This document shows, piece by piece, positions 8,059 to 43,160 of a stretch of DNA of 64,000 bases (the first letter of the stretch is position 1; each line of letters starts with the position of its first letter). The position numbers and the translations under genes were made by a program. Origin of the DNA: an uncultured delta proteobacterium (GTDB lineage Bacteria; Desulfobacterota; Syntrophia; Syntrophales; UBA8958); contig CAISJV010000052.1 of assembly GCA_903885795.1 (NCBI GenBank), forward strand, positions 4,592 through 68,591. The letters are read 5' to 3'. The notes beneath the pieces are model-generated. The model made no database searches. It saw only the letters and a list, made by a program, of their open reading frames with translations, and was not told the origin of the DNA.

Positions 8059-8154
8059 AAAATCCTTGCTTTTCCAGGGATAGATTCATTAGGATTGCGC
8101 GACACCTTTTGTGGCCGGGACCGATGCTTTATGTATCGTGGTCGTGTCCGCGAG

Positions 8155-8235
8155 TGTTTGACAGGGGCGCCGATAAGGCTGAGAAGATACCCTTTGAACC
8201 TGACCTGGGTAATGCCAGCGTAGGGAGTGGCAGAA
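8155..8235 (+). promoter_or_regulatory. TPP (THI-box) riboswitch aptamer
   Basis: ggggcgcc...ggCTGAGAagatACCCTTTGAACCTGAcCTGGgTAATgCCAGCGTAGGGAgtg carries the universally conserved CUGAGA and ACCUGA..CUGG.UAAU.CCAGCGUAGGGA blocks. It lies upstream of the thi genes. Confidence 0.9.
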
Positions 8236-8253
8236 AGATGATCAATATTTTTC

Positions 8254-31589: not shown

Positions 31590-31632
31590 CTGGCAGGCTG
31601 CTATGGAAGAAAATGTAAGTGTTTATGCAGCA

Positions 31633-31653
31633 TTTCCCGGATCAACCGGGAAA
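31633..31653. terminator. Hairpin between convergent dapL and radical SAM genes
   Basis: TTTCCCGG-atcaa-CCGGGAAA. There is no clear U-tract. Confidence 0.3.
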
Positions 31654-31692
31654 GTTCCCTCCTTGTGGGCGGTTTCATTTGGATTCTTCGAT

Positions 31693-33327
31693 TCATTTAC
31701 ACTTTTCCTTCGCTCTCACCCGTTCTTGGAAGCGCTTGAGCAGAAGATCTTCCTGTAATTGATCTTTCCCTTTGTATTCAAAGTAGAATTCATTTTCCAC
31801 CTCCTGAATCGTTTCGAGATAGTTCGACCGGGCAACTTCCCTTACCACCATTCTTTGGGCCAGTCTATTTTCAAATCTCTGAAACACTGGCATGAGTTTT
31901 CTGTGTTTTCCGAAAATCCTGACAGTATCAGTTAAAGAGGTGGCCGCCATATTAAATTCCATAATCTTCTTCTGGAGGGTGGATGGTTTCATGTATTTGG
32001 GGTAGAATATTACAAATTCACCATTACAGTAATCGATTACTGCCCGTCCAAAACGGGCAAATTCATCCCAGAGAAAATAGCGGTGTGCAGGCATAAACTG
32101 ATCCGGTGATTCGGGCATCTGACTTAATGGAGAAACTCTCCATTTTTCTATTCCAGTCTCGTTGATAAATCGATGAATTCTCTCGAACGTATCTAAATCG
32201 TCTGTGTCATATCCCACAATAAAGAGGCCAGTTATTGCAAACCCATGTTCATGAAATATATTCATGGCCTTTTTAATAGTATCGTAAGATATCTTCTTCT
32301 TGAAATCATTCAGAGTCTGGTCAGTCAGGGACTCGATCCCGACTGACAGACTGCATACGCCTGCTTCCCGCATAACCGCGAGCAGCTTGCGATCTTCGCA
32401 GATATCAGCCCGCACCAGAACGGTCGCCTTTATAGGTGTTGCGTTTTTGGCGAGAGCCTCGAAAAACACATGTGACTTTTTGTCAAAGGGAAGAGCCGCC
32501 GTCGGATCTTCGAACATTACCCTGCGAATGTTTGATCTCGCAACGTACTCTTGGAGATACGCCAAGGCACTTTCGATGCTGCGCCGTCGATAGTTATTGC
32601 CCTGCGAATGGCGGGATGTGGGGCAAAAAGAACAGTTGTAAGGGCATCCTCTCGTACCTTGGAACATAAGCATCGGAAGCATCTTTTTACTCATGATCCA
32701 GGCTAGAGGAAGGTGTCTAAAAATAAACCCCTGAACAGTCTCATCATAGCCGACAACCAAAGAAAGATCGGGTATATTATCAAAAAATTCACAGACTTGA
32801 TTTTTCTTGAGATAGTCATTGAAGATATCGTCGGTAGCATGCCCCTCCGATTCAAGGGCCTTTAACAGTTGGAGGAAGGCCCCTTCAGATTCGCCCCGCA
32901 GTGTGTAATCGAAAACCGGAGAAAGGTGTGAGTCGCCGCCGAATGAGATATGCTCTCCACCAAGCACCGTAACTATCTGGCGGCCAAGCTTTTCAGCTTC
33001 CCTCTTGACAGCTATTGCAATTTCCTCGGCCCTGGTAATTGCAGCACTCTTACAGGAAAAGCCGACCACATCGAACGCCTGGGCAAGATCTTGAGGTGAC
33101 ACACGAAGGCCTAGTTCTTCGTTGAATAGTCGGACAAAATATCCTGCCTGCCGGGTTACGGAAGCTACCTGCAAAGGCCCATACCGCTGCGTCCAGAGAG
33201 CACCGGCGAGGCAGAATAAGCGCTTGGCCGGAACAACAATGGCAATACGAAGATTTGGAAGAAAAACCTTATTCATTCCGAGCCAGTCCATTCCGGTGAA
33301 AAACTCACGTCTAATCTTCGCATACAC
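31693..33327 (-). CDS. B12-binding-domain radical SAM protein (class B)
   Basis: N-terminal Rossmann-like B12-binding region (...DVVGFSCKSA...VTVLGGEH...). Radical SAM motif GTRGCPYNCSFCPT. The start may be M18 (33276). Confidence 0.8.
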   Translation of the reverse strand: MYAKIRREFFTGMDWLGMNKVFLPNLRIAIVVPAKRLFCLAGALWTQRYGPLQVASVTRQAGYFVRLFNEELGLRVSPQDLAQAFDVVGFSCKSAAITRAEEIAIAVKREAEKLGRQIVTVLGGEHISFGGDSHLSPVFDYTLRGESEGAFLQLLKALESEGHATDDIFNDYLKKNQVCEFFDNIPDLSLVVGYDETVQGFIFRHLPLAWIMSKKMLPMLMFQGTRGCPYNCSFCPTSRHSQGNNYRRRSIESALAYLQEYVARSNIRRVMFEDPTAALPFDKKSHVFFEALAKNATPIKATVLVRADICEDRKLLAVMREAGVCSLSVGIESLTDQTLNDFKKKISYDTIKKAMNIFHEHGFAITGLFIVGYDTDDLDTFERIHRFINETGIEKWRVSPLSQMPESPDQFMPAHRYFLWDEFARFGRAVIDYCNGEFVIFYPKYMKPSTLQKKIMEFNMAATSLTDTVRIFGKHRKLMPVFQRFENRLAQRMVVREVARSNYLETIQEVENEFYFEYKGKDQLQEDLLLKRFQERVRAKEKCK

Positions 33328-33655
33328 TTTCCCGTCTGTTCCGCCTCCAGAACCATGAACCGCTTCTGATCCTCATTCCACTGGCGGCGATCTTTTCCCC
33401 GATTTTCTGCCTATGGGGATTCCATACATCAATCAACAAAGACCACCATACCTCGCCGTCAAAATCATCACGCCGCCGGAACAGAAGGTAGCAAACTGTT
33501 CCATGTCTCCTCGATTCCAACATGAATGTCCTTCTCTTAATGCCTTTTCCCCTCTCTCCTACCTGTCCGCCAAATCGGGCGTGAACCGTATTGGATATCC
33601 CAATTGGTTTGTGCAGTCGGTACCGGATGCACAACTTCCGGTCCGCAGTTCACGA

Positions 33656-34630
33656 TTAGTAATGGCGTTCACATAGCACCCGCAGCCATTGCAGACATTT
33701 AGGCTTCCCTATTTTAATCAAAGGCTTCTTTGGGTCCGCGAAACACCCGGTGAATGGAAATACCTTTAGAGAATAAATTAGGTTTGACATAGATAAACGA
33801 TCATATTGAACCTGTACACTAAGATAGCGGGCGTATTTATTATAAATGTCGACCTCCTTAACTAGCATATGGGGCGGTAAAGCGGACAGATCGGTTTTGG
33901 GGCTCTCCTCGCAGTTCAGGTTTTGACTATGCAGCCGGATGACATAATGTTTATCTTCTGTCTCAAGGATCGCTTTCCAGCGCCACAAACCCGCCGGCAC
34001 AAAGGATGCCCCTTTCGTTTCTTCCAGCAGATTCATGAACTTGTCTTTTATTCTTTTTTTAAAATCTATTCTGCTCAGAACCATCAGCAGAATATGAACC
34101 GTAAGGACTAGGTACGTTATCAAGGCGACATGGAATCTTTCCGGCCCGAACCGCTCGGGAAATAAAAGTTTCAGAAACATGACAATAATCCCGAGTATCA
34201 ATATGAAGGAAAAAGCGAAATCAAATTCGAAAAGAATATCGGTAGCCACCCGGTCTTTTTTAGGCCACCATAGGGAAGTACCAAAGGGATTTAAAATATC
34301 TACCAGGAGATGAACTATTGTACCCAATAAACACCAGAACCAAAGTGTTAAAACAGAATCAGCCGGTTGCAGCCCGACAAGAAACTTGAAAAGGAAAGAC
34401 CCTCCGTAGATGATTAAGGATAGTAGAAAAGAAAATGCAGGGGCCAGCAATAGCGAGTGTGTATAGGTCCGGTGCTTATCCAGATATCCAATGGTCCCGG
34501 GGCCACCGTGAACCAGATCGATATCCGGCAGCAAACTGCCACCGACGGCAGCCGCCAGGATATACCCGTCAAACGGTTGAAAGCTTAACCCGATGATGCT
34601 TCCCATCAGGATATGATCGAATATGATCAT
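33656..34630 (-). CDS. Membrane-bound metal-dependent hydrolase (YdjM/DUF457-like) with extra C-terminal soluble domain
   Basis: MIIFDHILMG..., ...LLPDIDL..., ...HRTYTHSLL... and 5-6 TM segments. A ~130-aa C-terminal region has no motif I recognise. Confidence 0.65.
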   Translation of the reverse strand: MIIFDHILMGSIIGLSFQPFDGYILAAAVGGSLLPDIDLVHGGPGTIGYLDKHRTYTHSLLLAPAFSFLLSLIIYGGSFLFKFLVGLQPADSVLTLWFWCLLGTIVHLLVDILNPFGTSLWWPKKDRVATDILFEFDFAFSFILILGIIVMFLKLLFPERFGPERFHVALITYLVLTVHILLMVLSRIDFKKRIKDKFMNLLEETKGASFVPAGLWRWKAILETEDKHYVIRLHSQNLNCEESPKTDLSALPPHMLVKEVDIYNKYARYLSVQVQYDRLSMSNLIYSLKVFPFTGCFADPKKPLIKIGKPKCLQWLRVLCERHY

Positions 34631-34893
34631 TCTAGTATACCCCTACCATTAATTTTTCTGGCTTTATTTAAGCTCGTTTACGGTTCGCTCAAATTCACCG
34701 ATGTCCTCCTCAAAACCCATTTCTTCAAAAAAAGATCTTGCCATGGTTAAAAAAACTCATTGGCTTTTTACAATCACGCTCCGTTAACGGCTTTTGGGCT
34801 CGGAGAGCCTTTTTCATGGTGGAAGCATATGAAGTCGCTTTAGTTGCCCTACTATTCCCATGAAGGGGGAAAGCAAATCTGAAGACATTCATC

Positions 34894-37800
34894 CTATTGA
34901 AACTTCACTAAAGCCTCCCTAGCCCTATTCAAAAATGGGCCGGCATTGCATTTCTCAAATACCTCCACAGATCTAAAAATACACTGACGGCCTTTCTGAG
35001 TTTGCCCTTTTAACCTGTACAAGAACCCCAAATCAAAATAAGTCTCTCCCAGAAGGTTTTTGGCACCGATCTCTTGCGCCATCTCGATTGCCTTCAGAAA
35101 ATGGGATTCCGCCTTTTTGAAAGCAAAAGGAAGGGTTTTAATCAGGAATCCAAAGTTTTTTAGCAGGAACGAAAGGCCGGAATTTTTATTCTCTCCTGCT
35201 CCCGGGACAAGCTGGGTATAAATCTGCCCCAGGATGTGTTTGCAGACCACATAACGGTACTTCAGTCCGCAATCGTGATATTCCCGTGTGACTTCCTCTA
35301 TCATTGCCACGCCATTTTCTAGGTCCCCGTTAATGACCGTGATTATTCCCGAATACAACTTGGCTACCGTACCATGAGGAAATGAATGACATGTGTCTGT
35401 CAATACTGTCAATTCATCAAGAATTTTTTGTGCGTCCTGGTATTTACCTGCAGCGACACACGACATTCCCCATATCGTTGTTGCTGTGATTTTTATCAAA
35501 GGGTCCAAAGCAAAGTGGTAAGATTTCTTTATGTTATCTATCGCAGACAGAAAATCACCGGAGACAAGGTCGGAAAACGTAAGGCAGAGATAACCATCGG
35601 ACAGGCATTCACTTCGTAAGTGCATTTTTGCGAACTCAAGGATCCTTTCCCCTATTTCCTTGGACTCAACAACATCTCCCCTGAAATAGCGGGCGAACCC
35701 GATATAGAAAGAGATATGTCGAAAGAAATCCGGATCGGTTTTATATGATTCAAGCTCCTGTGCCTTCCTGCCGCATTCAATTGCCTCGTCCAGCATGCCA
35801 AGGTCAGCGTAGCACCAAGGGAGGAAAGTATACGCAGAAGCTATGACCTTTTCGTTGCCGATCTGCTCGCCTATTTCGAGGGCCTTCCTTAAATAACTTA
35901 GCGCTTCGGGCAGCTTATTGCTCCAGTTCATGGCTGCCCCGATCCGCGCATAGAACATACCCGACCTCTCTCCATCTCCCAGAGAGATGACCATAGACTC
36001 ATGATCTTTCAGCAAGTCTATGAGCTCATAGAAATGGCAACGGCGGTAAAAAATAACAGCCCATTGGATGAGTATGTCGACTAGGAGGGCAGTTTCCTCC
36101 TTGGAACGTTCGGAAATACCTTTAACGATATTAAAGGCTTCTTTATAATGCTGGTGGGCTTCGTCCAGGGCGTACCGGGCAAGGCTCTTCTCGGCCGACT
36201 TTACGAGGTATTCAACTGCCTTTGTACCGGATGGACCATTCTTGTAATGAAAAGCCAGAGACTCGTAGAAGTCAGAGAGCCTTTCCTGGAATAATTCCTC
36301 CATTACCCGACCGGTTTTTTCATGTATCCTCTGTCGCTCTTTTTTAAGCAGCTCATTATATACCACTTCCTGAGTAATCACATGCTTGAAGATGTATTCC
36401 AGGTTGGGCTCAACCGCTTTGGTCTGTATAAGATCCATCCGCTCCAGCCCTGAGAGGCTCTCGTCAATGTGCTCTTTGAGCTCCGTGGTACGCTTCAGTA
36501 TATCATACGGGAAAGACCTTCCGATTACCGAAGCCTCTTGAAGGATCTTCTTGGTGAATGGTTCTAATCGGTCAAGGCGCGCCGAAATCACCCCCTGCAC
36601 GGTAGGAGGAATGTTTTCCGTCAATATGGGTTTGTCCACGCACCATTTGCCGTTCCTTTTCACCAGGGCATTTGTTTCGAGAAGAGATACAACGATTTCC
36701 TCGATGTAAAAGGGGTTTCCTTCCATCTTACTCAGGACGTAATTCTTTAGTTCAGCAGGAATGTCCTTTGATTTCAGAATGGACTCCACCATTTTCTGTG
36801 CATCTTCAGGTTTAAGGTCCTTGAGCACGATCTCTTGAGTTTTACCAGTAAATGTGCTGAAGGCTGGGCGGGATACGCATAAAAACAAAGCTGGATGCTG
36901 ATGGCCAAAGATAATGCTCTTCAACAGCTCGATTGAGGAGGGATCGGCCCAATGGAGGTCCTCTATGCAGATTATAGTCGGCCCTCTCCGGCACAGATTA
37001 GCAATTATCTCATTTACGGCCTCGTATAGCCCTGCTTTCCGCGATTCGGGGCTAATCCGATCAAATTCTGGATGCTGGATGGAATAGAGACTTGACACAT
37101 AAGGGACAATATCCTCTTTCGCCCCCATCAGCGATCTTATCGAGAATACCACCTTGTTTTTAATGTTTTCTAGCAGATCACCCTCTTTAATATTCCATGC
37201 ACGACTCAGCAGGTCCGTCAATGGGTAATAGGTTGTGTTTTGGGTATATGTGTAACAATGCCCTTCAAACCACTGGATTTCGTGTGGGATCAGGGATGAC
37301 TTAAACTCCTCAACAAGACGGCTTTTGCCTGTTCCGACATCGCCAATTATCGAGATGATTGAACCCTTCCCCTTTTTGAGCTTTTCAACAGCGTCCGACA
37401 ATTGAGCCATTTCCGAATCACGGCCGATCAAGGCCGCCCTGAATTCTGGCTTCCCGTGTGTTTTTACCGGCTCTTTTTTAGCGGACAGAACCCTGTAAAT
37501 CTGCACCGTCTCTGTTTTGCCTTTGAGAATTGTTGGCTCAAACTTTTCGAAATCGAAGTATCCTTCCGTTTGCCTGTGAGTTTCCGGCCCTACAACAATT
37601 TGGTCCGCTTTAGCCATAGCCGCAAGCCGGGAAGCAACGTTGATTGCATCGCCGAGGACACCGTGGGTACCGTGTTTTAGGCTGACTCCACCTGTAACGA
37701 CAGGGCCGGTGTTGATGCCTGTATGCATTGCAAACGGCTGCCCGTTATTTTCAACAGGGGACTTTAAACCTTTTATTAATTCATGTATCTCTAAGGCGGC

Positions 37801-38160
37801 TTTGATTGCCCTTACAGGATCATCCTCATGGGACTCAATTGCACCGAAAAGAGCCATCGTTCCATCCCCGATAAACTTTTCAACGAAACCACCGTACTTT
37901 ACAACTAAACGGGCAGTCTCTCCGAAAATTCCGGTCATTATTGCCTTTAGTTCTTCAGGGTCGAGTTTTTCGGACAAAGATGTATAGCCGGAAAGGTCGC
38001 AAAACAATGCCGTTACAAATTTGCGCTTGCCTTCTGCTACAGGATGGGAGGCGGCTTTTTCCTGGACGGATAGATCTGTAAAACTTCTACCGCAATGATC
38101 ACAGAAATTTGCCGAATCCCGATTTTCGAATTTACACCCCGGGCATAGCACCATCTTCAC
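34894..38160 (-). CDS. Zinc-ribbon / class III adenylate-guanylate cyclase / AAA(STAND) ATPase / TPR multidomain protein (1088 aa)
   Basis: CPGCKFEN...FCDHCG. Cyclase core FVTALFCDLSGYTSL...KFIGDGTMALFG...GDAINVASRL. P-loop GDVGTGKSRL. The long C-terminal region is TPR-like helical repeats. The start is GTG. Confidence 0.85.
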   Translation of the reverse strand: MKMVLCPGCKFENRDSANFCDHCGRSFTDLSVQEKAASHPVAEGKRKFVTALFCDLSGYTSLSEKLDPEELKAIMTGIFGETARLVVKYGGFVEKFIGDGTMALFGAIESHEDDPVRAIKAALEIHELIKGLKSPVENNGQPFAMHTGINTGPVVTGGVSLKHGTHGVLGDAINVASRLAAMAKADQIVVGPETHRQTEGYFDFEKFEPTILKGKTETVQIYRVLSAKKEPVKTHGKPEFRAALIGRDSEMAQLSDAVEKLKKGKGSIISIIGDVGTGKSRLVEEFKSSLIPHEIQWFEGHCYTYTQNTTYYPLTDLLSRAWNIKEGDLLENIKNKVVFSIRSLMGAKEDIVPYVSSLYSIQHPEFDRISPESRKAGLYEAVNEIIANLCRRGPTIICIEDLHWADPSSIELLKSIIFGHQHPALFLCVSRPAFSTFTGKTQEIVLKDLKPEDAQKMVESILKSKDIPAELKNYVLSKMEGNPFYIEEIVVSLLETNALVKRNGKWCVDKPILTENIPPTVQGVISARLDRLEPFTKKILQEASVIGRSFPYDILKRTTELKEHIDESLSGLERMDLIQTKAVEPNLEYIFKHVITQEVVYNELLKKERQRIHEKTGRVMEELFQERLSDFYESLAFHYKNGPSGTKAVEYLVKSAEKSLARYALDEAHQHYKEAFNIVKGISERSKEETALLVDILIQWAVIFYRRCHFYELIDLLKDHESMVISLGDGERSGMFYARIGAAMNWSNKLPEALSYLRKALEIGEQIGNEKVIASAYTFLPWCYADLGMLDEAIECGRKAQELESYKTDPDFFRHISFYIGFARYFRGDVVESKEIGERILEFAKMHLRSECLSDGYLCLTFSDLVSGDFLSAIDNIKKSYHFALDPLIKITATTIWGMSCVAAGKYQDAQKILDELTVLTDTCHSFPHGTVAKLYSGIITVINGDLENGVAMIEEVTREYHDCGLKYRYVVCKHILGQIYTQLVPGAGENKNSGLSFLLKNFGFLIKTLPFAFKKAESHFLKAIEMAQEIGAKNLLGETYFDLGFLYRLKGQTQKGRQCIFRSVEVFEKCNAGPFLNRAREALVKFQ

Positions 38161-38447
38161 CGACCGGTTCAGATTTGAAAAGCTGTTTTAATCCCGCGGC
38201 AATTGAACATAACCACTTCTTTGCCACAATGCCTGCATTGAGGGCAAATCGATGCCCAGAATGGCTCTATTTAGTCACCGGAGTAATAATTTGGCAAATA
38301 ATTATTTTTAAATTATGTGTTTGATACACGCCGGACGACGTAAAATATTAATAGACAAATTGTCAAGGATATTTTACATTACTAAACAGATCACACTATA
38401 AAAAGCAGTTAGTAAGGAAGATATTAAAATGATCAGGAGCTTATATT

Positions 38448-39137
38448 ATGGATGACGCAGATTCGCCAAGCAGGCCGCTGAAAACCCCAAACCCCAAACT
38501 GGTTGACTATCACAGATTGAAGAACGAAATGCTCACTGGTGACCTGCTGCAATGGAAGAAAGATGCTTGTTCAAGGTGGGTTTACCGTGGGCTAATTGGT
38601 TCACAAGTTGACCATTCATCCCTGATCATCCGTTTTAAAGAGTATGAAAATGCCGTTAGTCAAATTGAAACTTATGAAAAGAGCTCAAATCCCACAAGAA
38701 GAGACATCTACAATATGGAAGAAACTTGGATAAAAGGCGCGCACCTGGATCTGCTGTCCCACTTGCTGGAGGGATATGATGGAGAAGTCTGGCTTTACCG
38801 ACTGAAGGACGATTGGAGTCCCGGCGAAAGAAAGAAGATAGGAATAGCGCTCCTTGAACACGTGGGAACGCCTTTTGATGCGTGGTCAGTGCTAAAGAAT
38901 TTCATTTTTAATATTTGTCGACGTTTTATCACGAATATCCGATTCCGCCATGATTGGAGGGTAGAGGAGCGCAGACTTTTTTGTTCCGAGTATTGCTATC
39001 TGGCATATAAGTCCGCGAGGGGAGACCTTATCGTCGATAAAGATTTAGAGATTGTGTTTAGAGGACCACCTCATCCCATGGACCTCCCCAAACTCGGAAT
39101 TTTTATGGAACCAATAAAATTATATCCTTCAAAATAG
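38448..39137 (+). CDS. Hypothetical protein, possible permuted papain-fold (YiiX / peptidase C92-like) amidase
   Basis: GDLLQW...GSQVDHSSLII (His block) precedes ...RLFCSEYCYLAYK (Cys block), which is the permuted order. Assignment is from motif memory only. Confidence 0.4.
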   Translation: MDDADSPSRPLKTPNPKLVDYHRLKNEMLTGDLLQWKKDACSRWVYRGLIGSQVDHSSLIIRFKEYENAVSQIETYEKSSNPTRRDIYNMEETWIKGAHLDLLSHLLEGYDGEVWLYRLKDDWSPGERKKIGIALLEHVGTPFDAWSVLKNFIFNICRRFITNIRFRHDWRVEERRLFCSEYCYLAYKSARGDLIVDKDLEIVFRGPPHPMDLPKLGIFMEPIKLYPSK

Positions 39138-39152
39138 CAGATGGTAATTCCC

Positions 39153-40628
39153 TTACCTGGCTTCCATGATTTTCTTATAAATGGCCGTCGTCAGTGCTTC
39201 CGGCTCCGTGTCCAGTCCCTCCCAGAGCGCTTTCCGGCAATCTTTGTAGGCCTTTATGGCTTCCCCTTGCATATGTCTGTTCGAGTAAAGTGTCATCAGC
39301 CGCTGGTAAACCTGCTCTGAAAGGGGATCGATTTGAATGATCTTTTTGTAACATTCGATGGCTATCTTTGAGGTGCCGCGTTTTTCCTGGATGCCGGCTA
39401 TCCTGAATAAAAGATTGATATAAAGTTTTCGCAATTCTTCTCTCTTTGCATCAATCCACGAAGTGTAAAGCTCTTCGGAAAGGAAATCGCCCTTATAAAG
39501 ATCCAGGGCGTTGTTGTAAAGGAAAAGAGCCGCCTCCGTGTCTCCCTCCCTTTCCTTCTTTTCACCTCGTCGGCAAAATGACAAAAAATCATCGAGATCG
39601 GTTTTGCATAATTCCTCATCCAGATACATTACATTAGCCTTGAGGTAGACGTATGAGGATCCAAAGGCCTTGTCCATTTCAGGCTCCAATACTTTTCTCA
39701 AGCGGTGCAGGGTTATCTTGAGATTCCTTTCTCCTGATTGAGCTGTGACCTCCGGCCAGAGAGCCTCTATGATCTGATCTTTAGGCACCTGACGCGACCC
39801 ATAGGTGACAATGGCCTTTAAGAGAAACTTGGGCAGGTGGCCGCCCCACTCTCTTTCTTCCATGACAGTCAGGCCGCGATAGAGGCGAAACCCCCCTAAG
39901 GTCTCTATGTTTATCCGGCAAAGACCGGAACGATATATCGCTTGTCTGACTTTCATCGCCTTCCTTAAAGCCTTTGCGTCTTTAGGGTCCCCAGAGCTCG
40001 CATTATTATTCTGAAGATCGAAGTCGGGAGGTAACTGGAAAGGTTCATCCTTTTCCTGTTTCCCGGCCCCCTCTTTCTTTGTGAGCCGAGGCAGCATGGA
40101 TTGAAGGTATGAGAAGGCTTGAGACAGTTGACGGTTTTTTCTGTCCAGCTCCGCTAACATTTTTGCTTCGGAGGTACGCATCCTCTGACTGAGTATCCGT
40201 GCCATTGCATAGCCGATAGAAGGGCATTGATGAATCAGCCCATCCAGGGCTTCCCGGGTCATTTCCAACAACCGCACCGATGAACCCGTGCGCACGCTTG
40301 CGCTGCGCGACCTGTCGGGAGTGAGCAGGCACATCTCGCCCACATAATCGCCGGGATCACAAATGTTCACCAATTGCTCATCGGGAGTGCCCAGGGCTTT
40401 GATGATTTCCAACTGCCCCTCTAGGATAATGTAGAACCGGTCGCCGTGATCTCCCTCACGAAAGAGGATTGTATCCTCGGGAAATACAAGTTGCCGCAGG
40501 ACAGCTATCAAATTTTTTATTTCACGTTTCGGAAGCGGGGACAGTAATGGGTTTTGGGAAATTAACTTTTCGTACATTACACTACGGCGCCGGTTGAGAT
40601 GTATCACTTTGGTCATTCCTCCCGCCAT
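39153..40628 (-). CDS. cNMP-binding domain + SARP/BTAD (winged-helix + TPR-like) transcriptional regulator
   Basis: ...FPEDTILFREGDHGDRFYIILEGQLEI...GEMCLL...RSASV... (cNMP domain). Then ...IETLGGFRLYRG...EALWPE...NLKITLHRLRKVLE... (OmpR/SARP wHTH) and ...YKGDFL....W....RE.L...Y... (BTAD). The start is uncertain (40628 or 40577). The ORF-track 5' extension is rejected. Confidence 0.75.
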   Translation of the reverse strand: MAGGMTKVIHLNRRRSVMYEKLISQNPLLSPLPKREIKNLIAVLRQLVFPEDTILFREGDHGDRFYIILEGQLEIIKALGTPDEQLVNICDPGDYVGEMCLLTPDRSRSASVRTGSSVRLLEMTREALDGLIHQCPSIGYAMARILSQRMRTSEAKMLAELDRKNRQLSQAFSYLQSMLPRLTKKEGAGKQEKDEPFQLPPDFDLQNNNASSGDPKDAKALRKAMKVRQAIYRSGLCRINIETLGGFRLYRGLTVMEEREWGGHLPKFLLKAIVTYGSRQVPKDQIIEALWPEVTAQSGERNLKITLHRLRKVLEPEMDKAFGSSYVYLKANVMYLDEELCKTDLDDFLSFCRRGEKKEREGDTEAALFLYNNALDLYKGDFLSEELYTSWIDAKREELRKLYINLLFRIAGIQEKRGTSKIAIECYKKIIQIDPLSEQVYQRLMTLYSNRHMQGEAIKAYKDCRKALWEGLDTEPEALTTAIYKKIMEAR

Positions 40629-41016
40629 CTTCTTGTCCCACCGCGTGTGGAATCGTAAGACATGAAATCTCCTGTTTACATGCGTAAACATACCATAATT
40701 TGCATCAGTGGAAAGATTTTTTTTCTTCGCAGATGATCGCAAAGGCATGGTTATCTGAACGGTGCTTTCGGTGCAAATATGTTCCCGTTTTTGCAGCAAG
40801 GTATTTTTTGAAAGCATGCCGGGCCTGCTCGCCGTTTCCAAATCGAAATCTGTAGCAAGCCCTCCGTACCGCTGCCAAAAGGGATAAATAAATATTTTCC
40901 GCCACTCCCATTTTGGCCTGTACGTTAATCTGCAATATCATCAAATAGTTAACATCGCATAAGTATTTTGTTCGCCCGTTTTTAGAGTAACCATTTATTA
41001 ACCTTGGCTATGTTAC

Positions 41017-41067
41017 TTCCTCTCCGCAGGCAGATGAACGGCGCCTTCTCCTGCAGGCAAAGAGGAA
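41017..41067. promoter_or_regulatory. Nested inverted/direct repeat region upstream of small-protein gene P1
   Basis: TTCCTCT...AGAGGAA encloses GCAGG...CCTGC. It can also be read as direct repeats TCTCCGCAGGCA / TCTCCTGCAGGCA about 27 nt apart. Confidence 0.3.
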
Positions 41068-41118
41068 CTAACCCGCAATAGGGGTTTGGGGAAAAGTAAT
41101 CTCAGATAAACACTTTAA

Positions 41119-41492
41119 ATCTATCCATGGGAGGGACACAATGCTTACACATGACAATGTTGCCAAAAAAAAGACGGAAGTTTTTAATAAGATTGAAGAC
41201 GCAGCGAGAAGAGGCGATGTTCAGAGAGTTGTTTACGCTGTCGAAACCCTGAAAGACATCGAAAAACAAAGCAGAAGGCTTGATAGCTCTCAAAAATATC
41301 GCATAGACGCCGGATTTGTTCTCTGATTTCCGCAGTTCCTCGCGGATTCACGGCGGGAACCAATTCGACGACACAATTGCTTCAAGGTGCTGTCAAACGG
41401 GGTCGGAGTAGCGCCACCCGACCCCACCTCCTAAAAAAATAGGAGGGGCGCCTAAATCGGGAAGAATTGGAGGTAATAAGGAGGGATATAAC
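41119..41492 (+). repeat. Segmental duplication copy 1 (RBS + P1 gene + ~165-nt conserved 3' flank)
   Basis: Aligns end to end with 41818-42187. I counted about 10 percent nt divergence in the CDS and about 7 percent in the first 99 nt of the flank. Confidence 0.9.
41141..41326 (+). CDS. Small helical protein P1 (61 aa), novel paralog family
   Basis: GGGAGGG RBS. MLTHDNVAKKKTEVFNKIEDAARRGDVQRVVYAVETLKDIEKQSRRLDSSQKYRIDAGFVL. It is 87 percent identical to P3, with 9 synonymous codon differences. Confidence 0.75.
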   Translation: MLTHDNVAKKKTEVFNKIEDAARRGDVQRVVYAVETLKDIEKQSRRLDSSQKYRIDAGFVL

Positions 41493-41636
41493 CTGCCAAG
41501 TGTTAAGTCTCTTCGCACGAACCGAATAAAGGCTTTTTTTATGCGAAGCGATTCAGGACTGACGGGCTTTGGTGCGGACGCTTCAGAGGACTGTTAATCA
41601 GAAAAAACATCCAACACATGAAAGGGAGGGGACAAA

Positions 41637-41804
41637 ATGGAGAAACTTTTACAAGCAAAAATGGATGCTCTTAAAAAGATTGAAGAAGCGGTGAAAAGAG
41701 GGGACTCCCAATCGGTCATTCACAACGCAAGGACGATTGAGAGCGTTGAAAGGAAGTGTAGGCAGATGGAAAATGAGGAGGTTGTCAGGTGGGGAGTTTC
41801 TTGA
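41637..41804 (+). CDS. Small helical protein P2 (55 aa; below ORF-track cutoff), divergent paralog of P1/P3
   Basis: Hand translation gives MEKLLQAKMDALKKIEEAVKRGDSQSVIHNARTIESVERKCRQMENEEVVRWGVS*. RBS AAGGGAGGGG. It aligns with P1/P3 (KKIE-A-RGD-Q-V...TI...E...). Confidence 0.65.
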   Translation: MEKLLQAKMDALKKIEEAVKRGDSQSVIHNARTIESVERKCRQMENEEVVRWGVS

Positions 41805-41817
41805 AAATGCACGAAAG

Positions 41818-42187
41818 ATCTATTCACAGGAGGGATACAATGCTTTCACATGACAATATTGCCCAAAAGAAGACGGAAGTTTTTAAAAAGATTGAAGACG
41901 CGGCAAGAAGGGGCGACGTGCAGAGAGTTGTTTATGCCGTCGAAACCATAAAAGACATCGAAAAACAAAGCAGAAGGCTTGATAACGCTCAAAAATACGA
42001 CATAGACGCCGGATTTGTTCTCTGATTTCCGCAGTTCCTGGCGGATTCACGGCGGGAACCAATTCGACGACACAATTGTATCGCGGTGTTGTCAAACGGG
42101 GTCGGGGTAGCGCCACCCGACCCCACCTCCTAAAAAAGGTGATCGCCCAAATCAGGAAGAGTTGGGGATGATGAGGAAAGATATAAC
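41818..42187 (+). repeat. Segmental duplication copy 2 (RBS + P3 gene + conserved 3' flank)
   Basis: See copy 1. Confidence 0.9.
41840..42025 (+). CDS. Small helical protein P3 (61 aa)
   Basis: AGGAGGGA RBS. MLSHDNIAQKKTEVFKKIEDAARRGDVQRVVYAVETIKDIEKQSRRLDNAQKYDIDAGFVL. It starts 35 nt after P2. The ORF-track start at 41789 overlaps P2. Confidence 0.75.
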   Translation: MLSHDNIAQKKTEVFKKIEDAARRGDVQRVVYAVETIKDIEKQSRRLDNAQKYDIDAGFVL

Positions 42188-42248
42188 GGGGACATTAATG
42201 ATCAATCAAGCCACAAAACAAACGACACGGAAATGAAGGAGAGTCGCA

Positions 42249-42752
42249 ATGTTTGTTCAGGAGCTTTATGGAGCGGATGATTTACAGGATGGGCGCTTGT
42301 TGGATGAAATCTACGATTTCTGGGACCAGCAGGATAAGCGGGCAATTTGGCTGCGTTTTGGATGTTTTCGGCTTCCTAAAAAGGAAGATTATGAAAATAT
42401 ATTTCGTCGGGCCATGATGGTGGTAGTTGTAAGGGACGAATCTGGAAAATTGATCGGTTATTCGGAGGGATGCCGGTGCAGGGACAATGAACGGCACGTG
42501 GAATTGGGGCTGGCCGTCGATAAGGAATATCGGCGCAACGGCGTGGCTATGGAAATGGTGATGACAATGTGTCGGGAATGTTCACACCAGGGCATTGAGA
42601 AGGCAGAGGCTTACATCATGCCTGAAAACCTGACTATGACGGCCCTCGTAAGAAAAATCATGAATATCCTGCCGGTTCGGCTAAAATTCGAGGACGGCAG
42701 TTTTCACGCCCTCATCGATCCAAAGAAGGCCCCAGCGCCGATCGCGTCTTGA
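42249..42752 (+). CDS. GNAT family acetyltransferase (167 aa)
   Basis: ...VELGLAVDKEYRRNGVAMEMVMTMCRECSHQGIEKAEAYIMPEN... is the acetyl-CoA binding core. AAGGAGAG RBS. Confidence 0.7.
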   Translation: MFVQELYGADDLQDGRLLDEIYDFWDQQDKRAIWLRFGCFRLPKKEDYENIFRRAMMVVVVRDESGKLIGYSEGCRCRDNERHVELGLAVDKEYRRNGVAMEMVMTMCRECSHQGIEKAEAYIMPENLTMTALVRKIMNILPVRLKFEDGSFHALIDPKKAPAPIAS

Positions 42753-42987
42753 GGCGTCTGGTCGGACATCAGCGTAGTCGCGCAGTTAAAAATTACTGCA
42801 GGGGTTCATCATTTCTATTCCCTAAGAAACAAGAAGTTGCGCGTAACATAACCACCCAGAAAAATCACCCTTCCAAAGTTGTATTTTTTACCTGTTGTCA
42901 TCAAAATAGTATAGAATCCGTTGAAGTGATATGGAAAGAGCTATTCTCCTTCCATGATGCACAGTCCTTCCACCCATCGAAAAAACT

Positions 42988-43024
42988 CGCCCTAACCCCA
43001 GCCCTCTTCCTGCGGGAGAGGAGA
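42988..43024. repeat. REP-like hairpin (copy E5, divergent)
   Basis: cgccctaaccccagccctcttcctgcgggagaggag. Confidence 0.5.
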
Positions 43025-43078
43025 TTTTGGAACTTTCGAGAACACGTCAAATAACGAAATTTATTGACAAGTGCCGAT

Positions 43079-43110
43079 TTAACAACCCCTGGAATTTTAT
43101 TGGTTGACAA
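43079..43110. promoter_or_regulatory. Candidate BirA operator (bioO)
   Basis: TTAACAACC-N14-GGTTGACAA. The half-sites are 7/9 complementary. The geometry and sequence resemble the TTGTAAACC-N14/15-GGTTTACAA type BirA sites. It overlaps the -35 box. Confidence 0.55.
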
Positions 43111-43132
43111 TCCGGCTCATTTCCACTATGAA
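43104..43132 (+). promoter_or_regulatory. Sigma70-like bioB promoter
   Basis: TTGACA-17 nt-TATGAA. It is near-identical (-35, 14/17 of the spacer, TAT) to the module at 49195-49223. Confidence 0.5.
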
Positions 43133-43160
43133 CCTCCCCGTTCCGGGGAGGTTTTTTATT
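43131..43160 (+). terminator. Terminator-like hairpin overlapping the bioB -10 box, SD and start codon
   Basis: AACCTCCCC-gttcc-GGGGAGGTT followed by TTTTATT. The 3' arm contains the bioB SD (GGGGAGG). Confidence 0.5.

What the first reader, a model, noticed from the sequence alone, without database searches (positions are those of the whole stretch)
31590..43130. About 11.5-kb accessory stretch inserted between dapF-dapL and the biotin cluster
Everything between the dapL stop (31589) and the bioB promoter (~43100) is non-housekeeping. It includes a B12-radical SAM enzyme, a YdjM-like membrane hydrolase, a cyclase-STAND-TPR giant, a possible C92-like amidase, a cNMP-SARP regulator, three tiny paralogous proteins and a GNAT. 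By eye the DNA is clearly richer in A+T than the flanks; I did not compute GC. Intergenic gaps here are 220-400 bp, whereas flanking operons have overlapping or <30-bp junctions. No integrase, transposase or tRNA marks the borders. The right border carries a REP-like hairpin (42988-43024). This is the most likely place in the window for an uncharacterised system.
Basis: partly seen in the sequence, partly recalled or inferred. Interest (0 to 1): 0.65.

Follow-up and report, generated by a model that had tools for sequence, protein, structure and literature searches.

The report
Variable island carrying a cAMP-to-SARP gene switch
The 11.5-kb stretch is a real, strain-variable insertion between dapL and the biotin operon of a Syntrophus-like bacterium, and its core looks like a self-contained cAMP relay (sensor-cyclase, then a rare cAMP-binding SARP activator) that switches on tiny helical proteins and an acetyltransferase of unknown target.

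Summary
Window 31590 to about 43078 has GC 0.461, against 0.538 and 0.544 in the flanks. It is the lowest-GC 11.5-kb stretch of the window, and its GC3 is 0.51 against 0.64. A Syntrophus MAG with 98% identical DapL has dapL followed 84 bp later by bioB, which is an empty site. Other close relatives carry variant content at the same site. A six-gene block (YdjM, cyclase-STAND-TPR, C92-like amidase, cNMP-SARP, small protein, GNAT) recurs next to der in another genome. No integrase, tRNA or flanking repeat marks the borders, and the "REP-like" hairpin is single-copy and unremarkable.

The conserved logic is as follows. A class III adenylate cyclase is fused to a STAND ATPase and TPRs. A rare cNMP-binding-wHTH-BTAD (SARP) regulator sits nearby. 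There is one promoter with TAACC-N6-TAACC direct repeats at an 11-bp period. It is followed by sp1-sp2-sp3-GNAT, interspersed with a covarying RNA hairpin. In other genomes the same promoter, leader and GNAT are driven by about 1100-aa STAND-SARP fusions, with or without the small protein.

The regulatory chain is inferred from sequence only. The GNAT substrate is unknown; its nearest relatives are Pat-type protein acetyltransferases. I rate this a new variant of known kinds, of moderate interest.

The parts
31590..43078 (.). Accessory island (indel relative to the empty dapL|bioB site). The right edge is uncertain between 43078 and 43093.
   Evidence: Homology to the empty site in L010 ends at the dapL stop (31589). 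It resumes at the bioO operator, 43079-43094. GC is 0.461 against 0.54 in the flanks.
31693..33291 (-). B12-binding radical SAM enzyme (532 aa), function unassigned
   Evidence: Pfam Radical_SAM 82.9 bits and B12-binding 33.2 bits. NCBIfam gives only sub-threshold hits. The best PDB match is AprD4, 6e-11. L115 has an 84% orthologue at the same site.
33311..33634 (-). Remnant of a second C92-like amidase gene (called as 70 aa, 33311-33523)
   Evidence: It contains the family motif DGEVWW..R..IG. tblastn matches the C92-like gene of L115 (40% over 46 aa, 6e-4).
33656..34630 (-). YdjM-family membrane hydrolase with a C-terminal extension of about 150 aa
   Evidence: Pfam YdjM 80.9 bits, residues 1-176. 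L109 has a 74% orthologue. The gene is absent from the L115 variant.
34894..38154 (-). Zinc-ribbon / class III adenylate cyclase / STAND (AAA_16) ATPase / TPR sensor protein (1086 aa)
   Evidence: Pfam Guanylate_cyc 77.4 bits, AAA_16 75.9 bits, TPR_12 57.2 bits. It matches TIGR03903 'TOMM system kinase/cyclase fusion' at 261 bits, below that model's cutoff. The catalytic Asp (DLSGYT, GDG), Lys (EKFIGDG) and Asn/Arg (NVASR) align with Cya2 (2w01) and its E->K adenylate cyclase variant 6fht.
38448..39137 (+). Divergent permuted papain-like amidase (C92 / YiiX-YaeF family), transcribed divergently from the cyclase gene
   Evidence: Pfam PF05708 E=0.028. Homologues carry PF05708 on record. H56 and C179 are invariant. 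The family profile matches PDB 3kw0 at 1.5e-7. The AF2 model (pLDDT 79) matches only 3kw0 and 2if6 (YiiX). The cyclase-C92 pair is conserved in L109 and L115.
39153..40577 (-). cNMP-binding / wHTH / BTAD (SARP-type) transcriptional activator. It is 474 aa if it starts at MYEKL; the ORF is open up to 40841.
   Evidence: Pfam BTAD 84.7 bits, cNMP_binding 68.6 bits, Trans_reg_C weak. The AfsR model aligns residues 310-561. The PBC-like motif GEMCLL..RSASV is read from the translation. Full-length homologues start at residue 81 of the 554-aa call.
40987..41017 (+). SARP-box-like promoter. It has GTAACC-N5-TTAACC direct repeats (11-bp period, 40987-41003) followed by a -10-like element: TATGTT at 41009-41014 or GTTACT at 41012-41017.
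   Evidence: It occurs once in the window and once per locus type in six independent contexts. Intergenic conservation begins exactly at this box.
41141..41326 (+). sp1, 61-aa small protein
   Evidence: It has a Shine-Dalgarno sequence and a 61-codon frame kept without indels in five diverged copies. pN/pS is 0.25-0.38.
41399..41425 (+). Conserved RNA hairpin, copy 1. It lies within the conserved leader, about 41327-41440. The invariant GGTGYTGTCAAAC precedes it and CACCUCCU follows it.
   Evidence: Cells paired: 96%, against 60% or less in slid controls. Two pairs show compensatory changes, and there are two kinds of G-U intermediates. There is no Rfam match.
41637..41804 (+). sp2, 55-aa diverged paralogue of sp1/sp3
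   Evidence: It is 36-42% identical to sp1/sp3 by tblastn. L096 has a 91% orthologue.
41840..42025 (+). sp3, 61-aa paralogue (87% identical to sp1)
   Evidence: It lies in the 300-nt direct repeat 41119-41418 / 41818-42117, which is 90% identical.
42098..42124 (+). Conserved RNA hairpin, copy 2 (leader of GNAT)
   Evidence: Same evidence as copy 1.
42249..42752 (+). GNAT acetyltransferase (167 aa) of a narrow family
   Evidence: Pfam Acetyltransf_1 41.9 bits and Acetyltransf_3 37.3 bits. The RRNGVA acetyl-CoA motif is conserved. Only 11 clusters at 90% identity were found in 5.8 billion proteins. The family profile matches Sulfolobus Pat (3f8k) at 6e-10 and mycobacterial Pat at 1.7e-5. The AF2 model has pLDDT 81; top fold hits are PatZ, EctA, PPT acetyltransferases and Rv0998.
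43079..43110 (+). bioO-like BirA operator at the right junction (flank, not island)
   Evidence: L010 has TTGTCAACC-N14-GGTTGACAA directly after the dapL stop. In the window the left half-site is degenerate, TTAACAACC.

Best explanation
The stretch is a strain-variable, mosaic genomic islet sitting exactly between the dapL stop codon and the BirA operator of bioB in a Syntrophus-like (Syntrophales) genome. It carries no recognisable mobility genes.

Its functional core is a second-messenger relay that ends in transcription. The steps are:
1. The 1086-aa zinc-ribbon/class III cyclase/STAND-ATPase/TPR protein senses an unknown ligand or protein through its TPR/STAND part and makes cAMP (inferred).
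2. The cNMP-binding/wHTH/BTAD regulator binds cAMP (inferred).
3. Acting as a SARP-type activator, it docks on the two TAACC repeats, spaced one helical turn apart, that replace a -35 element at 40987-41003 (inferred from conservation).
4. This single promoter drives sp1-sp2-sp3-GNAT as one transcript. A conserved RNA stem-loop between the cistrons is followed by an anti-SD-like CACCUCCU. It probably sets the processing, stability or translation ratio between the small proteins and the GNAT (inferred).
5. The output is an acetyl-CoA-dependent N-acetyltransferase. Its nearest characterised relatives are Pat-type protein acetyltransferases. It is made together with lysine-rich 61-aa proteins, which I take to be its partner or substrate (weakly inferred).

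The C92-like amidase is always divergent from the cyclase gene. It is probably part of the sensing sub-module, or it opposes the GNAT. YdjM and the B12-rSAM are looser passengers.

In other genomes the same promoter-leader-GNAT cassette is driven by a single STAND-TPR-SARP fusion protein of about 1100 aa. The window's version is therefore the 'split' form, in which cAMP links the sensor to the DNA-binding module.
For: **Island**
- Composition differs from the flanks.
- L010 has an empty site.
- L115 has variant content at the same site, and L096 shares the right junction.
- The six-gene block lies next to der in L109, at 69-88% identity.
- L011 and L038 have other content after dapL.

**Cyclase**
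- Domains were identified.
- Catalytic residues and the adenine-specifying Lys align with solved cyclases.

**Regulator**
- It has cNMP_binding and BTAD domains, and the AfsR model aligns with it.
- Among 1.84 billion representatives, only about 6-7 clusters share the full architecture.
- Most relatives of its DBD-BTAD half are C-terminal domains of about 1100-aa STAND-TPR proteins.

**Promoter**
- The TAACC-N6-TAACC box occurs exactly once in each of six locus types, although their regulators are only about 45% identical.
- It always lies upstream of sp or GNAT, and intergenic conservation starts at the box.
- The geometry fits what is reported for SARPs: direct repeats overlapping the -35 region, close to the -10 (PMC10972967, PMC11301090).

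**Operon**
- There is one box in the window.
- The 300-nt repeat begins 22 nt before the sp1 ATG and therefore excludes the promoter.
- No intrinsic terminator was found on the + strand between 41300 and 42250.

**Small proteins are real genes**
- pN/pS is 0.25-0.38, and the 61-codon frame is kept.

**RNA hairpin**
- Covariation supports it.

**GNAT**
Against: - No step has been tested biochemically.
- The ligand of the cNMP domain (cAMP, cGMP or another nucleotide) and the stimulus of the STAND/TPR sensor are unknown.
- The -10 assignment is ambiguous: a 5-nt or an 8-nt gap from the second repeat.
- The cyclase and the cNMP-SARP were seen together in only two independent contexts (the window type and L109). 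L115 has the cyclase and C92 gene without an adjacent cNMP-SARP.
- The STAND/TPR part of the cyclase protein is not detectably orthologous to that of the STAND-SARP fusions (BLASTP E about 0.002, TPR only). 'Fission' is therefore a functional analogy, not a demonstrated history.
- GNAT fold matches are generic. Small-molecule acetyltransferases score as well as Pat enzymes.
- The GNAT occurs without any sp gene in four locus types, so sp cannot be its obligate substrate.
- The hairpin alignment has only 8 sequences, which are related to one another.
Confidence: 0.55

Rival explanations
1. The island is a biological-conflict (anti-phage or abortive-infection-like) module. It would follow Pycsar-like logic with a transcriptional output: a STAND sensor detects an invader, its fused cyclase makes a cyclic nucleotide, and the cNMP-binding SARP induces a GNAT effector (toxin) together with small proteins that modulate or neutralise it.
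For: - The islet is low in GC and variably present, at a site that holds a VapBC-like pair in another relative.
- STAND NTPases with N-terminal effector domains are typical of defence sensors.
- PADLOC matches the cyclase to PycC models (E about 1e-12) and the cNMP domain to Pycsar effector models.
- One related GNAT locus sits beside an integrase fragment and a Gp49/HTH toxin-antitoxin pair (L111). Another is fused in an operon with an ARPP-1 protein (L113).
- The small genes are amplified to three copies.
Against: - The PADLOC hits are at domain level only, and no system-specific model matched.
- Pycsar effectors carry TM or TIR domains, not DNA-binding domains.
- The GNAT's closest sequence and fold matches are Pat, EctA and PPT-type enzymes. 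tRNA-acetylating toxins (TacT/AtaT) are not in the top 50 fold hits.
- The GNAT occurs without sp in several loci, so sp is not an obligate antitoxin.
- There was no match in phage-related or plasmid collections for the GNAT.
- Transcriptional induction is slow for an abortive response.
Confidence: 0.15
2. The island is a RiPP-type biosynthetic cluster. sp1-3 would be precursor peptides, the B12-rSAM and GNAT tailoring enzymes, the C92-like cysteine peptidase the leader protease, and the cyclase-STAND and SARP the pathway regulators.
For: - There are three tandem paralogous small ORFs with a conserved C-terminal IDAGFVL motif in sp1 and sp3.
- A B12-rSAM lies near sp-GNAT both here and in L090.
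- The cyclase-STAND protein's best NCBIfam hit is 'TOMM system kinase/cyclase fusion protein' (261 bits, below cutoff). The cNMP domain weakly hits 'bacteriocin-type transport-associated protein'.
- SARPs are classic cluster-situated activators (PMC10972967).
Against: - There is no transporter, cyclodehydratase or other core RiPP enzyme.
- The two rSAMs are only 25% identical, so they are not orthologues.
- B12-rSAM genes are numerous in such anaerobes (my own knowledge).
- The GNAT with the same promoter and leader occurs with no sp gene in L101, L108 and L111.
- sp is conserved along its whole length under purifying selection. It is charged and lysine-rich, and it lacks a Cys/Ser/Thr-rich or hypervariable core.
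- sp2 lacks the C-terminal motif.
Confidence: 0.12
3. sp and GNAT form a type II GNAT toxin-antitoxin pair (TacAT/AtaRT-like) that happens to lie next to unrelated signalling genes. On this view the island is a patchwork with no integrated function.
For: - A small gene lies upstream of a GNAT of about 165 aa, which is the layout of GNAT toxin-antitoxin modules (my own knowledge).
- The island is demonstrably mosaic: a C92 gene fragment, variant L115 content, and an sp copy-number difference in L005.
Against: - sp has no RHH/DUF1778 or any other Pfam match.
- A conserved structured spacer of about 225 nt separates sp and GNAT, rather than overlapping genes.
- The GNAT exists without sp in four locus types.
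- A dedicated SARP-type regulator with a conserved box accompanies the cassette in six contexts. This argues for integrated control rather than autoregulation by an antitoxin.
Confidence: 0.08
4. The region is ancestral and L010 has lost it. That would make it a deletion in the relative rather than an insertion here, with the low GC reflecting relaxed or different constraint.
For: - There are no mobility genes, target-site duplication or tRNA at the borders.
- At least two further lineages (L096/L104, L115/L116) carry island DNA at the same junctions.
Against: - The drop of 8 GC points and 13 GC3 points is confined to the block.
- The same block lies at a different locus (next to der) in L109.
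- More distant relatives have dapL followed by ychF-bioB or other genes, and never this block, in about 45 Syntrophales loci.
- In L010 the operator abuts the dapL stop cleanly.
- Even if the polarity of the event within the species group is a deletion, the block is still accessory.
Confidence: 0.1

Closest known systems
AfsR -> afsS of Streptomyces (large SARP with NB-ARC/TPR activating the adjacent gene for a 63-aa protein)
   Same: A SARP wHTH+BTAD module is coupled to a STAND-type NTPase/TPR sensor. In L090 and L111 the two are fused; in the window they are coupled through cAMP. It activates a neighbouring promoter that has direct repeats in place of a -35 element. The first product is a protein of about 60 aa with no enzymatic domain (PMC6988585, PMC11301090).
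   Different: - The domain order is reversed: the SARP module is C-terminal here.
- The host is a Desulfobacterota-type anaerobe, not an actinomycete.
- In the window the sensor sits on a separate protein with a cyclase output, and the regulator has a cNMP-binding input.
- sp has no detected similarity to any family.
- A GNAT is co-transcribed.
- I did not test homology between sp and AfsS.
Mycobacterial Pat (Rv0998/MSMEG_5458), a cAMP-activated protein lysine acetyltransferase
   Same: It links cAMP to a GNAT acetyltransferase. The window GNAT family profile matches Pat chains at 1.7e-5, and Rv0998 is among the best fold matches (TM 0.71). The NCBIfam Pat model hits both the cNMP domain of the regulator and the GNAT.
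   Different: In Pat the cNMP domain is fused to the GNAT and acts allosterically. Here the cNMP domain is on a transcription factor, so control would be transcriptional. The matches are weak, and the substrate is unknown.
Pycsar anti-phage systems (PycC cyclase + cNMP-binding effector)
   Same: A nucleotide cyclase and a cNMP-binding protein are encoded together in a variable island. PADLOC gives domain-level hits to both.
   Different: - The cyclase here is fused to a STAND ATPase and TPRs, and it has an adenine-type Lys.
- The 'effector' is a DNA-binding activator, not a TM or TIR killer.
- No system-level match was found.
Multidomain class III cyclase-ATPase-TPR proteins; NCBIfam TIGR03903 'TOMM system kinase/cyclase fusion protein'
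   Same: The cyclase, AAA_16 and helical-repeat core aligns over 660 residues (261 bits).
   Different: The score is far below the family cutoff (705). There is no kinase domain, and no TOMM genes are nearby.
YiiX/YaeF permuted papain-like amidases (Peptidase C92)
   Same: The fold and the invariant His and Cys are shared. PDB 3kw0 and 2if6 are the only fold matches.
   Different: The protein has about 60 extra residues (two insertions) and is very divergent: Pfam E=0.028, below threshold. The family has no established substrate.

Membership tests
Genomic island / accessory indel | Base composition and codon usage deviate from the flanks | tested here: met
   GC is 0.461 against 0.54. GC3 is 0.51 against 0.64 (p=3e-5). 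The lowest-GC stretch of the window coincides with the block.
Genomic island / accessory indel | Absent from the orthologous site of a close relative | tested here: met
   L010 (DapL 98%): dapL stop, then 84 bp, then bioB.
Genomic island / accessory indel | Integrase or transposase, tRNA target, or flanking direct repeats | tested here: not met
   No tRNA was found. No mobility domains were found. The junction alignment shows no duplication.
Genomic island / accessory indel | The same block is found in a different genomic context | tested here: met
   L109 has YdjM-cyclase-C92-cNMP-SARP-sp-GNAT beside der.
SARP-family transcriptional activators | OmpR-type winged-helix DNA-binding domain followed by BTAD | tested here: met
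   BTAD 84.7 bits (cutoff 22.1). Trans_reg_C E=5e-4. The AfsR model aligns residues 310-561 at 43.8 bits, far below its equivalog cutoff.
SARP-family transcriptional activators | Target promoter with direct repeats on one DNA face that overlap or replace the -35 element, a few bp upstream of the -10 | tested here: inconclusive
   TAACC-N6-TAACC (11-bp period) lies 5 or 8 nt upstream of a -10-like hexamer and is conserved in six locus types. Binding itself was not tested.
SARP-family transcriptional activators | N-terminal SARP module, actinobacterial host (as the family is classically described) | tested here: not met
   The SARP module is C-terminal, both here and in the roughly 1100-aa relatives. 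The host is Syntrophales. The classical description is taken from PMC10972967.
Class III adenylate cyclase | Two metal-binding Asp, an adenine-specifying Lys, and transition-state Asn and Arg | tested here: met
   The alignment to 2w01 and 6fht shows DLSGYT, EKFIGDG (Lys as in the E->K adenylate cyclase variant) and NVASR. Activity was not tested.
CRP/PKA-type cyclic-nucleotide-binding domain | Phosphate-binding cassette G-E ... R-[ST]-A | tested here: met
   cNMP_binding 68.6 bits. GEMCLLTPDRSRSASV is read from the translation. Ligand identity cannot be tested with these tools.
Pycsar | Stand-alone pyrimidine cyclase plus a cNMP-binding effector with a TM or TIR killing domain | tested here: not met
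   Only domain-level PADLOC hits were found. The cNMP protein carries wHTH+BTAD instead of a killing domain.
GNAT toxin-antitoxin (TacAT/AtaRT/KacAT) | An RHH/DUF1778 antitoxin gene abutting the toxin, with obligate co-occurrence | tested here: not met
   sp has no family match. The spacer is 223 nt. The GNAT is found without sp in L101, L108, L111 and L113.
RiPP biosynthetic cluster | A precursor peptide obligately linked to its core modifying enzyme, plus a protease or exporter | tested here: not met
   There is no exporter. The rSAMs here and in L090 are not orthologous (25% identity). The GNAT cassette exists without sp.
Peptidase C92 (YiiX/YaeF permuted papain-like) | Permuted His...Cys catalytic pair on the NlpC/P60-like fold | tested here: met
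   H56 and C179 are invariant. The profile matches 3kw0 at 1.5e-7. The only fold matches are 3kw0 and 2if6. The Pfam score is below threshold.
REP (repetitive extragenic palindrome) | The palindrome recurs at many intergenic sites | tested here: not met
   There is a single copy in 64 kb with up to 3 mismatches allowed. The folding z-score is -0.57.
Rfam cis-regulatory RNA | Match to a curated covariance model | tested here: not met
   No relevant hit was found in 40800-43200 even at E<=5.

The most novel reading that the evidence does not exclude
The block is a new kind of inducible conflict or dormancy system. A STAND/NLR-like sensor would signal through a diffusible cyclic nucleotide to a dedicated SARP transcription factor, which then switches on a GNAT effector and small modulator proteins. 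This would be Pycsar/CBASS-like second-messenger logic with a transcriptional rather than a direct killing output. A previously undescribed structured leader RNA would gate the effector.
Probability: 0.12. Interest if true: 0.8.

Novelty: new variant of a known kind. Interest (0 to 1): 0.5.

Why it matters
As an island, the finding is ordinary: a small, integrase-less indel at a variable site. Its content is less ordinary in three ways.

- **SARP regulation outside actinomycetes.** SARP-type activators are described almost only in actinomycete antibiotic regulation. Here a large family of reversed-order STAND-TPR-SARP proteins appears in uncultured anaerobes. So does a rare cNMP-binding offshoot, paired with a sensor-cyclase.
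- **A natural fused-versus-split comparison.** The same promoter-leader-GNAT cassette is driven either by a single fusion protein or by a split pair joined by cAMP. This shows how NLR/STAND sensing can be rewired through a second messenger. It also gives a compact, testable system of one promoter, one box and one output operon.
- **New parts with no known function.** These are a conserved, covarying leader RNA with no Rfam family, a new small-protein family, and a narrow GNAT family.

If the output proves to be regulated protein acetylation or a conflict effector, it would extend cAMP-acetylation coupling beyond mycobacterial Pat.

Tried and rejected
- **REP element at the right border:** rejected. 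The hairpin is single-copy and its fold is not significant.
- **Rfam families** in the sp/GNAT region: none found.
- **PADLOC defence models:** only generic cyclase and cNMP domain hits.
- **Plasmid origin:** the GNAT has no plasmid match. The regulator has only distant BTAD matches.
- **rSAM as part of the sp-GNAT module:** the L090 rSAM is only 25% identical, so the linkage is not supported. The rSAM's nearest solved relative is AprD4, at core-domain level only.
- **Domain fission by descent:** the idea was that the cyclase protein's STAND/TPR region is the detached sensor of the STAND-SARP fusions. BLASTP shows only weak TPR similarity, so descent is not supported.
- **Metagenome scan with the GNAT alignment:** it gave only 5 loci, mostly duplicates of ones already held. 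Covariation analysis therefore stayed at 8 sequences.
- **Literature searches:** searches for ARPP-1 and for the TOMM kinase/cyclase family gave nothing usable.
- **Target-site duplication or inverted repeats at the junctions:** none found.
- **Further SARP boxes in the window** (for example upstream of the cyclase, C92, YdjM or rSAM genes): none found.

Full report

Yes. A 1-kb composition profile shows GC of 0.42-0.49 from 32 to 43 kb, against 0.51-0.60 on either side. Measured over 31590-43075, GC is 0.461, against 0.538 (left flank) and 0.544 (right flank). The lowest-GC stretch of that length anywhere in the window begins at 31601. The six large island genes have GC3 of 0.46-0.56 (mean 0.51). 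Forty-four other long ORFs average 0.64 +/- 0.06 (Mann-Whitney p=3e-5).

There is no tRNA in the window and no integrase or transposase domain in the island.

**2. Is it an insertion?**

A scan of one genome per species with DapL returned about 45 Syntrophales loci. I mapped the window's proteins onto them.

- **Empty site.** The closest different lineage is L010, a Syntrophus sp. MAG (DapF 96%, DapL 98%, BioB 93%, BirA 96%). There the dapL stop is followed 84 bp later by the bioB start. Those 84 bp hold a BirA-operator-like palindrome (TTGTCAACC-N14-GGTTGACAA) and an SD-containing hairpin.
- **Junctions.** Pairwise alignment places the end of left homology at the dapL stop codon (31589). Homology returns at 43079-43094, inside the operator, whose left half-site is degenerate in the window. 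No duplication or inverted repeat flanks the block.
- **Variant at the same site.** L115/L116 (DapL 96%) carry dapL, then the rSAM (84%), the cyclase-STAND (96%), a much more divergent C92-like gene (63%) and an unrelated 109-aa gene. They have no YdjM.
- **Shared right junction.** L096/L104 share the window's right end, sp1-sp2-sp3-GNAT-bioB.
- **Other content after dapL.** L011 (DapL 92%) has a VapBC-like pair after dapL. L038 (87%) has ychF between dapL and bioB.
- **Same block elsewhere.** In L109 the block YdjM (74%), cyclase-STAND (88%), C92-like (88%), cNMP-SARP (82%), sp (69%), GNAT (81%) lies next to der, not bioB.

The stretch is therefore accessory, mosaic and mobile as sub-blocks, at a site that varies within the clade. 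The mechanism of movement is not visible.

The 'REP-like' hairpin (43002-43023) is unique in the window and folds no better than shuffled sequence.

**3. Anatomy of the sub-modules**

*(a) Sensor sub-module.* The 1086-aa protein has four parts: an N-terminal zinc ribbon, a class III cyclase domain, an AAA_16 STAND ATPase and TPRs.

- The cyclase domain aligns with Cya2 (2w01) and its engineered adenylate-cyclase variant (6fht). Both metal-binding Asp, the Asn/Arg pair, and Lys at the base-specifying position (EKFIGDG, like the E->K variant) are present. An active adenylate cyclase is the most likely reading.
- Its best curated family hit is the cyclase-ATPase core of 'TOMM system kinase/cyclase fusion protein', far below cutoff.
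- The 229-aa gene is transcribed divergently from it. I support this gene as a divergent C92/YiiX permuted papain-like amidase on four grounds: a weak Pfam hit, homologues that carry PF05708, invariant His56 and Cys179, and profile and fold matches to PDB 3kw0 and 2if6 only.
- The cyclase/C92 pair and its intergenic region are conserved in all three contexts.
- The 107-aa ORF at 33311-33634 is a leftover piece of a second C92-like gene.

*(b) Regulator.* The ORF at 39153-40841 encodes a cNMP-binding domain, a linker, an OmpR-type winged helix and a BTAD. This is a SARP module with a cyclic-nucleotide input. The cNMP-binding domain has the GE...RSA cassette.

- An exhaustive HMMER search of 1.84 billion representatives found only about 6-7 clusters with this full architecture. 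They are about 450-480 aa and start at the window's MYEKL, so the gene probably starts at 40577.
- Most of the top 150 hits are proteins of about 1100 aa in which the homologous wHTH-BTAD is C-terminal to a STAND ATPase and TPRs.
- Actinobacterial SARPs are described with the opposite domain order (PMC10972967).

*(c) Output cassette.* Homologues of the GNAT are few: 11 clusters at 57-95% identity. I examined their contexts and found six locus types that share the following features.

- **A SARP-type regulator upstream.** It is the cNMP type in the window and L109. It is the STAND-TPR-SARP fusion in L090 and L111. L101 and L108 have the same C-terminal wHTH-BTAD, but both loci are cut at a contig end, so the N-terminal architecture of those regulators is unknown.
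- **A promoter-like motif.** It reads GTAACC-N5-TTAACC, that is, TAACC repeated at an 11-bp period, followed by TATGTT or GTTACT. It occurs exactly once per locus. Sequence conservation of the intergenic region begins there. This is the geometry reported for SARP boxes: direct repeats on one face, overlapping the -35 region, close to the -10 (PMC10972967, PMC11301090).
- **A conserved leader.** Its core is the invariant GGTGYTGTCAAAC, a 9+1-bp GC-rich hairpin and CACCUCCU. The hairpin is 96% paired across 8 sequences, against 60% or less in slid controls. Two positions show compensatory changes, and two kinds of G-U intermediates point to RNA on the + strand. No Rfam family matches.
- **The GNAT.**

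*The small proteins.* In three locus types a 61-codon gene (sp) lies between the promoter and the leader. In the window it has been amplified to sp1, a diverged sp2 and sp3, through a 300-nt, 90%-identical direct repeat that includes the leader.

- The sp frames are under purifying selection (pN/pS 0.25-0.38) and have kept their length.
- They match no family.
- The window has only one SARP box, and no terminator was found between sp1 and the GNAT. The four genes are therefore most simply one operon.
- One metagenome contig (L005) has a single sp. This reflects either recombination between the repeats or assembly collapse.

*(d) Passengers.* The B12-rSAM has no specific family assignment; its nearest solved relative is AprD4. 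The YdjM-family membrane hydrolase is the other passenger. The rSAM beside sp-GNAT in L090 is not orthologous to the window's rSAM (25% identity).

**4. How it most likely works**

The following are shown by sequence:
- the parts themselves;
- their recurrence together;
- intact catalytic and binding motifs;
- a conserved promoter box;
- a covarying RNA hairpin.

The following chain is inferred. An unknown stimulus acts on the TPR/STAND part and activates the fused cyclase. cAMP then binds the cNMP-SARP. The activator occupies the TAACC repeats and recruits RNA polymerase to a promoter that lacks a -35 element. The sp1-sp2-sp3-GNAT transcript is made. The leader hairpins, with their anti-SD-like tail, tune the ratio of sp to GNAT expression.

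The fused STAND-SARP proteins driving the same cassette elsewhere make the window's two-protein version look like a 'split' design, with cAMP as the wire. The STAND/TPR parts are not detectably orthologous, however, so this is a functional parallel and not a demonstrated fission.

*The output.* The GNAT keeps the R-x-x-G-x-A acetyl-CoA motif. Its best sequence matches are Sulfolobus Pat (6e-10) and the cAMP-regulated mycobacterial Pat (1.7e-5). Fold matches are generic GNATs, led by PatZ, EctA, phosphinothricin acetyltransferases and Rv0998. I therefore favour an amine, probably protein, acetyltransferase, with the lysine-rich sp proteins as partners or substrates. The confidence is low, because the GNAT cassette also exists without sp.

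**5. Rivals**

- **Conflict or defence module with Pycsar-like logic.** It is suggested by the island context, the STAND sensor, neighbouring toxin-antitoxin and integrase remnants in related loci, and domain-level PADLOC hits. There is no system-level match and no toxin-type GNAT signal.
- **RiPP cluster.** It is suggested by the tandem small ORFs, the rSAM, the peptidase-like C92 and the TOMM-associated family name. It is weakened by the absence of an exporter, by the non-orthologous rSAMs, by GNAT cassettes without sp, and by whole-length conservation of sp.
- **GNAT toxin-antitoxin pair.** The defining features are not met.
- **Ancestral region lost in L010.** This cannot be excluded for polarity within the species group. 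It does not change the accessory status.

**6. Comparison with known systems, and novelty**

The module works most like AfsR -> afsS: a STAND-coupled SARP activating the adjacent gene for a protein of about 60 aa. It also resembles mycobacterial Pat, which couples cAMP to a GNAT. It is a member of neither. The domain order, host, input domain and output all differ.

The island as such is ordinary. The following appear undescribed in the libraries I could search:
- the cNMP-SARP architecture paired with a sensor-cyclase;
- the conserved box;
- the leader RNA;
- the sp and GNAT families.

My verdict is a new variant of known kinds, of moderate interest (0.5). There is a small chance (about 0.12) that it is a new type of second-messenger conflict system with a transcriptional output.

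Noticed in passing
window 8153-8243 (+): TPP riboswitch (RF00059, 64.6 bits, above the gathering score). It is the only Rfam family found in the window.
   Followed up: no
window 52489-53688 (-): A 399-aa gene with GC3 of 0.45, as low as the island genes, and no Pfam family on record. It is a second compositional outlier in the window.
   Followed up: no
window 43079-43158; L010 6004-6086: A BirA-operator-like palindrome (TTGTCAACC-N14-GGTTGACAA in L010; the left half is degenerate in the window). It is followed by a conserved hairpin plus T-run (43130-43154) that contains the bioB Shine-Dalgarno sequence. In the empty-site genome this hairpin would also serve as the dapL terminator.
   Followed up: partly
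L005 6519-7431 (metagenome ERZ27313108): An otherwise identical contig carries one sp gene (sp1 type) instead of three. This reflects either recombination between the 300-nt direct repeats in the population or assembly collapse.
   Followed up: partly
window 33311-33634 (-): The ORF between the rSAM and YdjM is a fragment of a second C92-like amidase gene (motif DGEVWW..R..IG). This is evidence of past rearrangement inside the island.
   Followed up: yes
L011 11943-12640; L038 11177-12208: Other Syntrophales have different genes after dapL. L011 has an RHH/PIN (VapBC-like) pair, and L038 has ychF before bioB. The dapL 3' flank is a variable site in the clade.
   Followed up: partly
L090 6308-9673; L111 1790-5146; P0039-P0181: There is a large family of proteins of about 1100 aa with STAND ATPase, TPR and a C-terminal wHTH-BTAD. 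This is the reverse of the order described for actinobacterial large SARPs. The family dominates the hits to the regulator's DNA-binding half in 1.84 billion representatives.
   Followed up: partly
window 41020-41050 and 41330-41360: A short similar segment (CCGCAG...GAT[G/T][A/C]ACGGC) lies both upstream and downstream of sp1. Loci without sp have one copy. The sp gene may have been gained or lost by recombination within the GNAT 5' leader.
   Followed up: no
L113 718-2342: In one metagenome the related GNAT (73% identical) is preceded at 57 nt by an ARPP-1 (PF20208) protein. There is no SARP box or leader hairpin, so the GNAT also circulates in a different operon type.
   Followed up: no
L101 2162-9927: In the L101 locus type the SARP-box/leader/GNAT cassette is followed in the same direction by a TpsB/TpsA two-partner-secretion pair (the TpsA is 1808 aa) and a FecR-like gene.
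   Followed up: no
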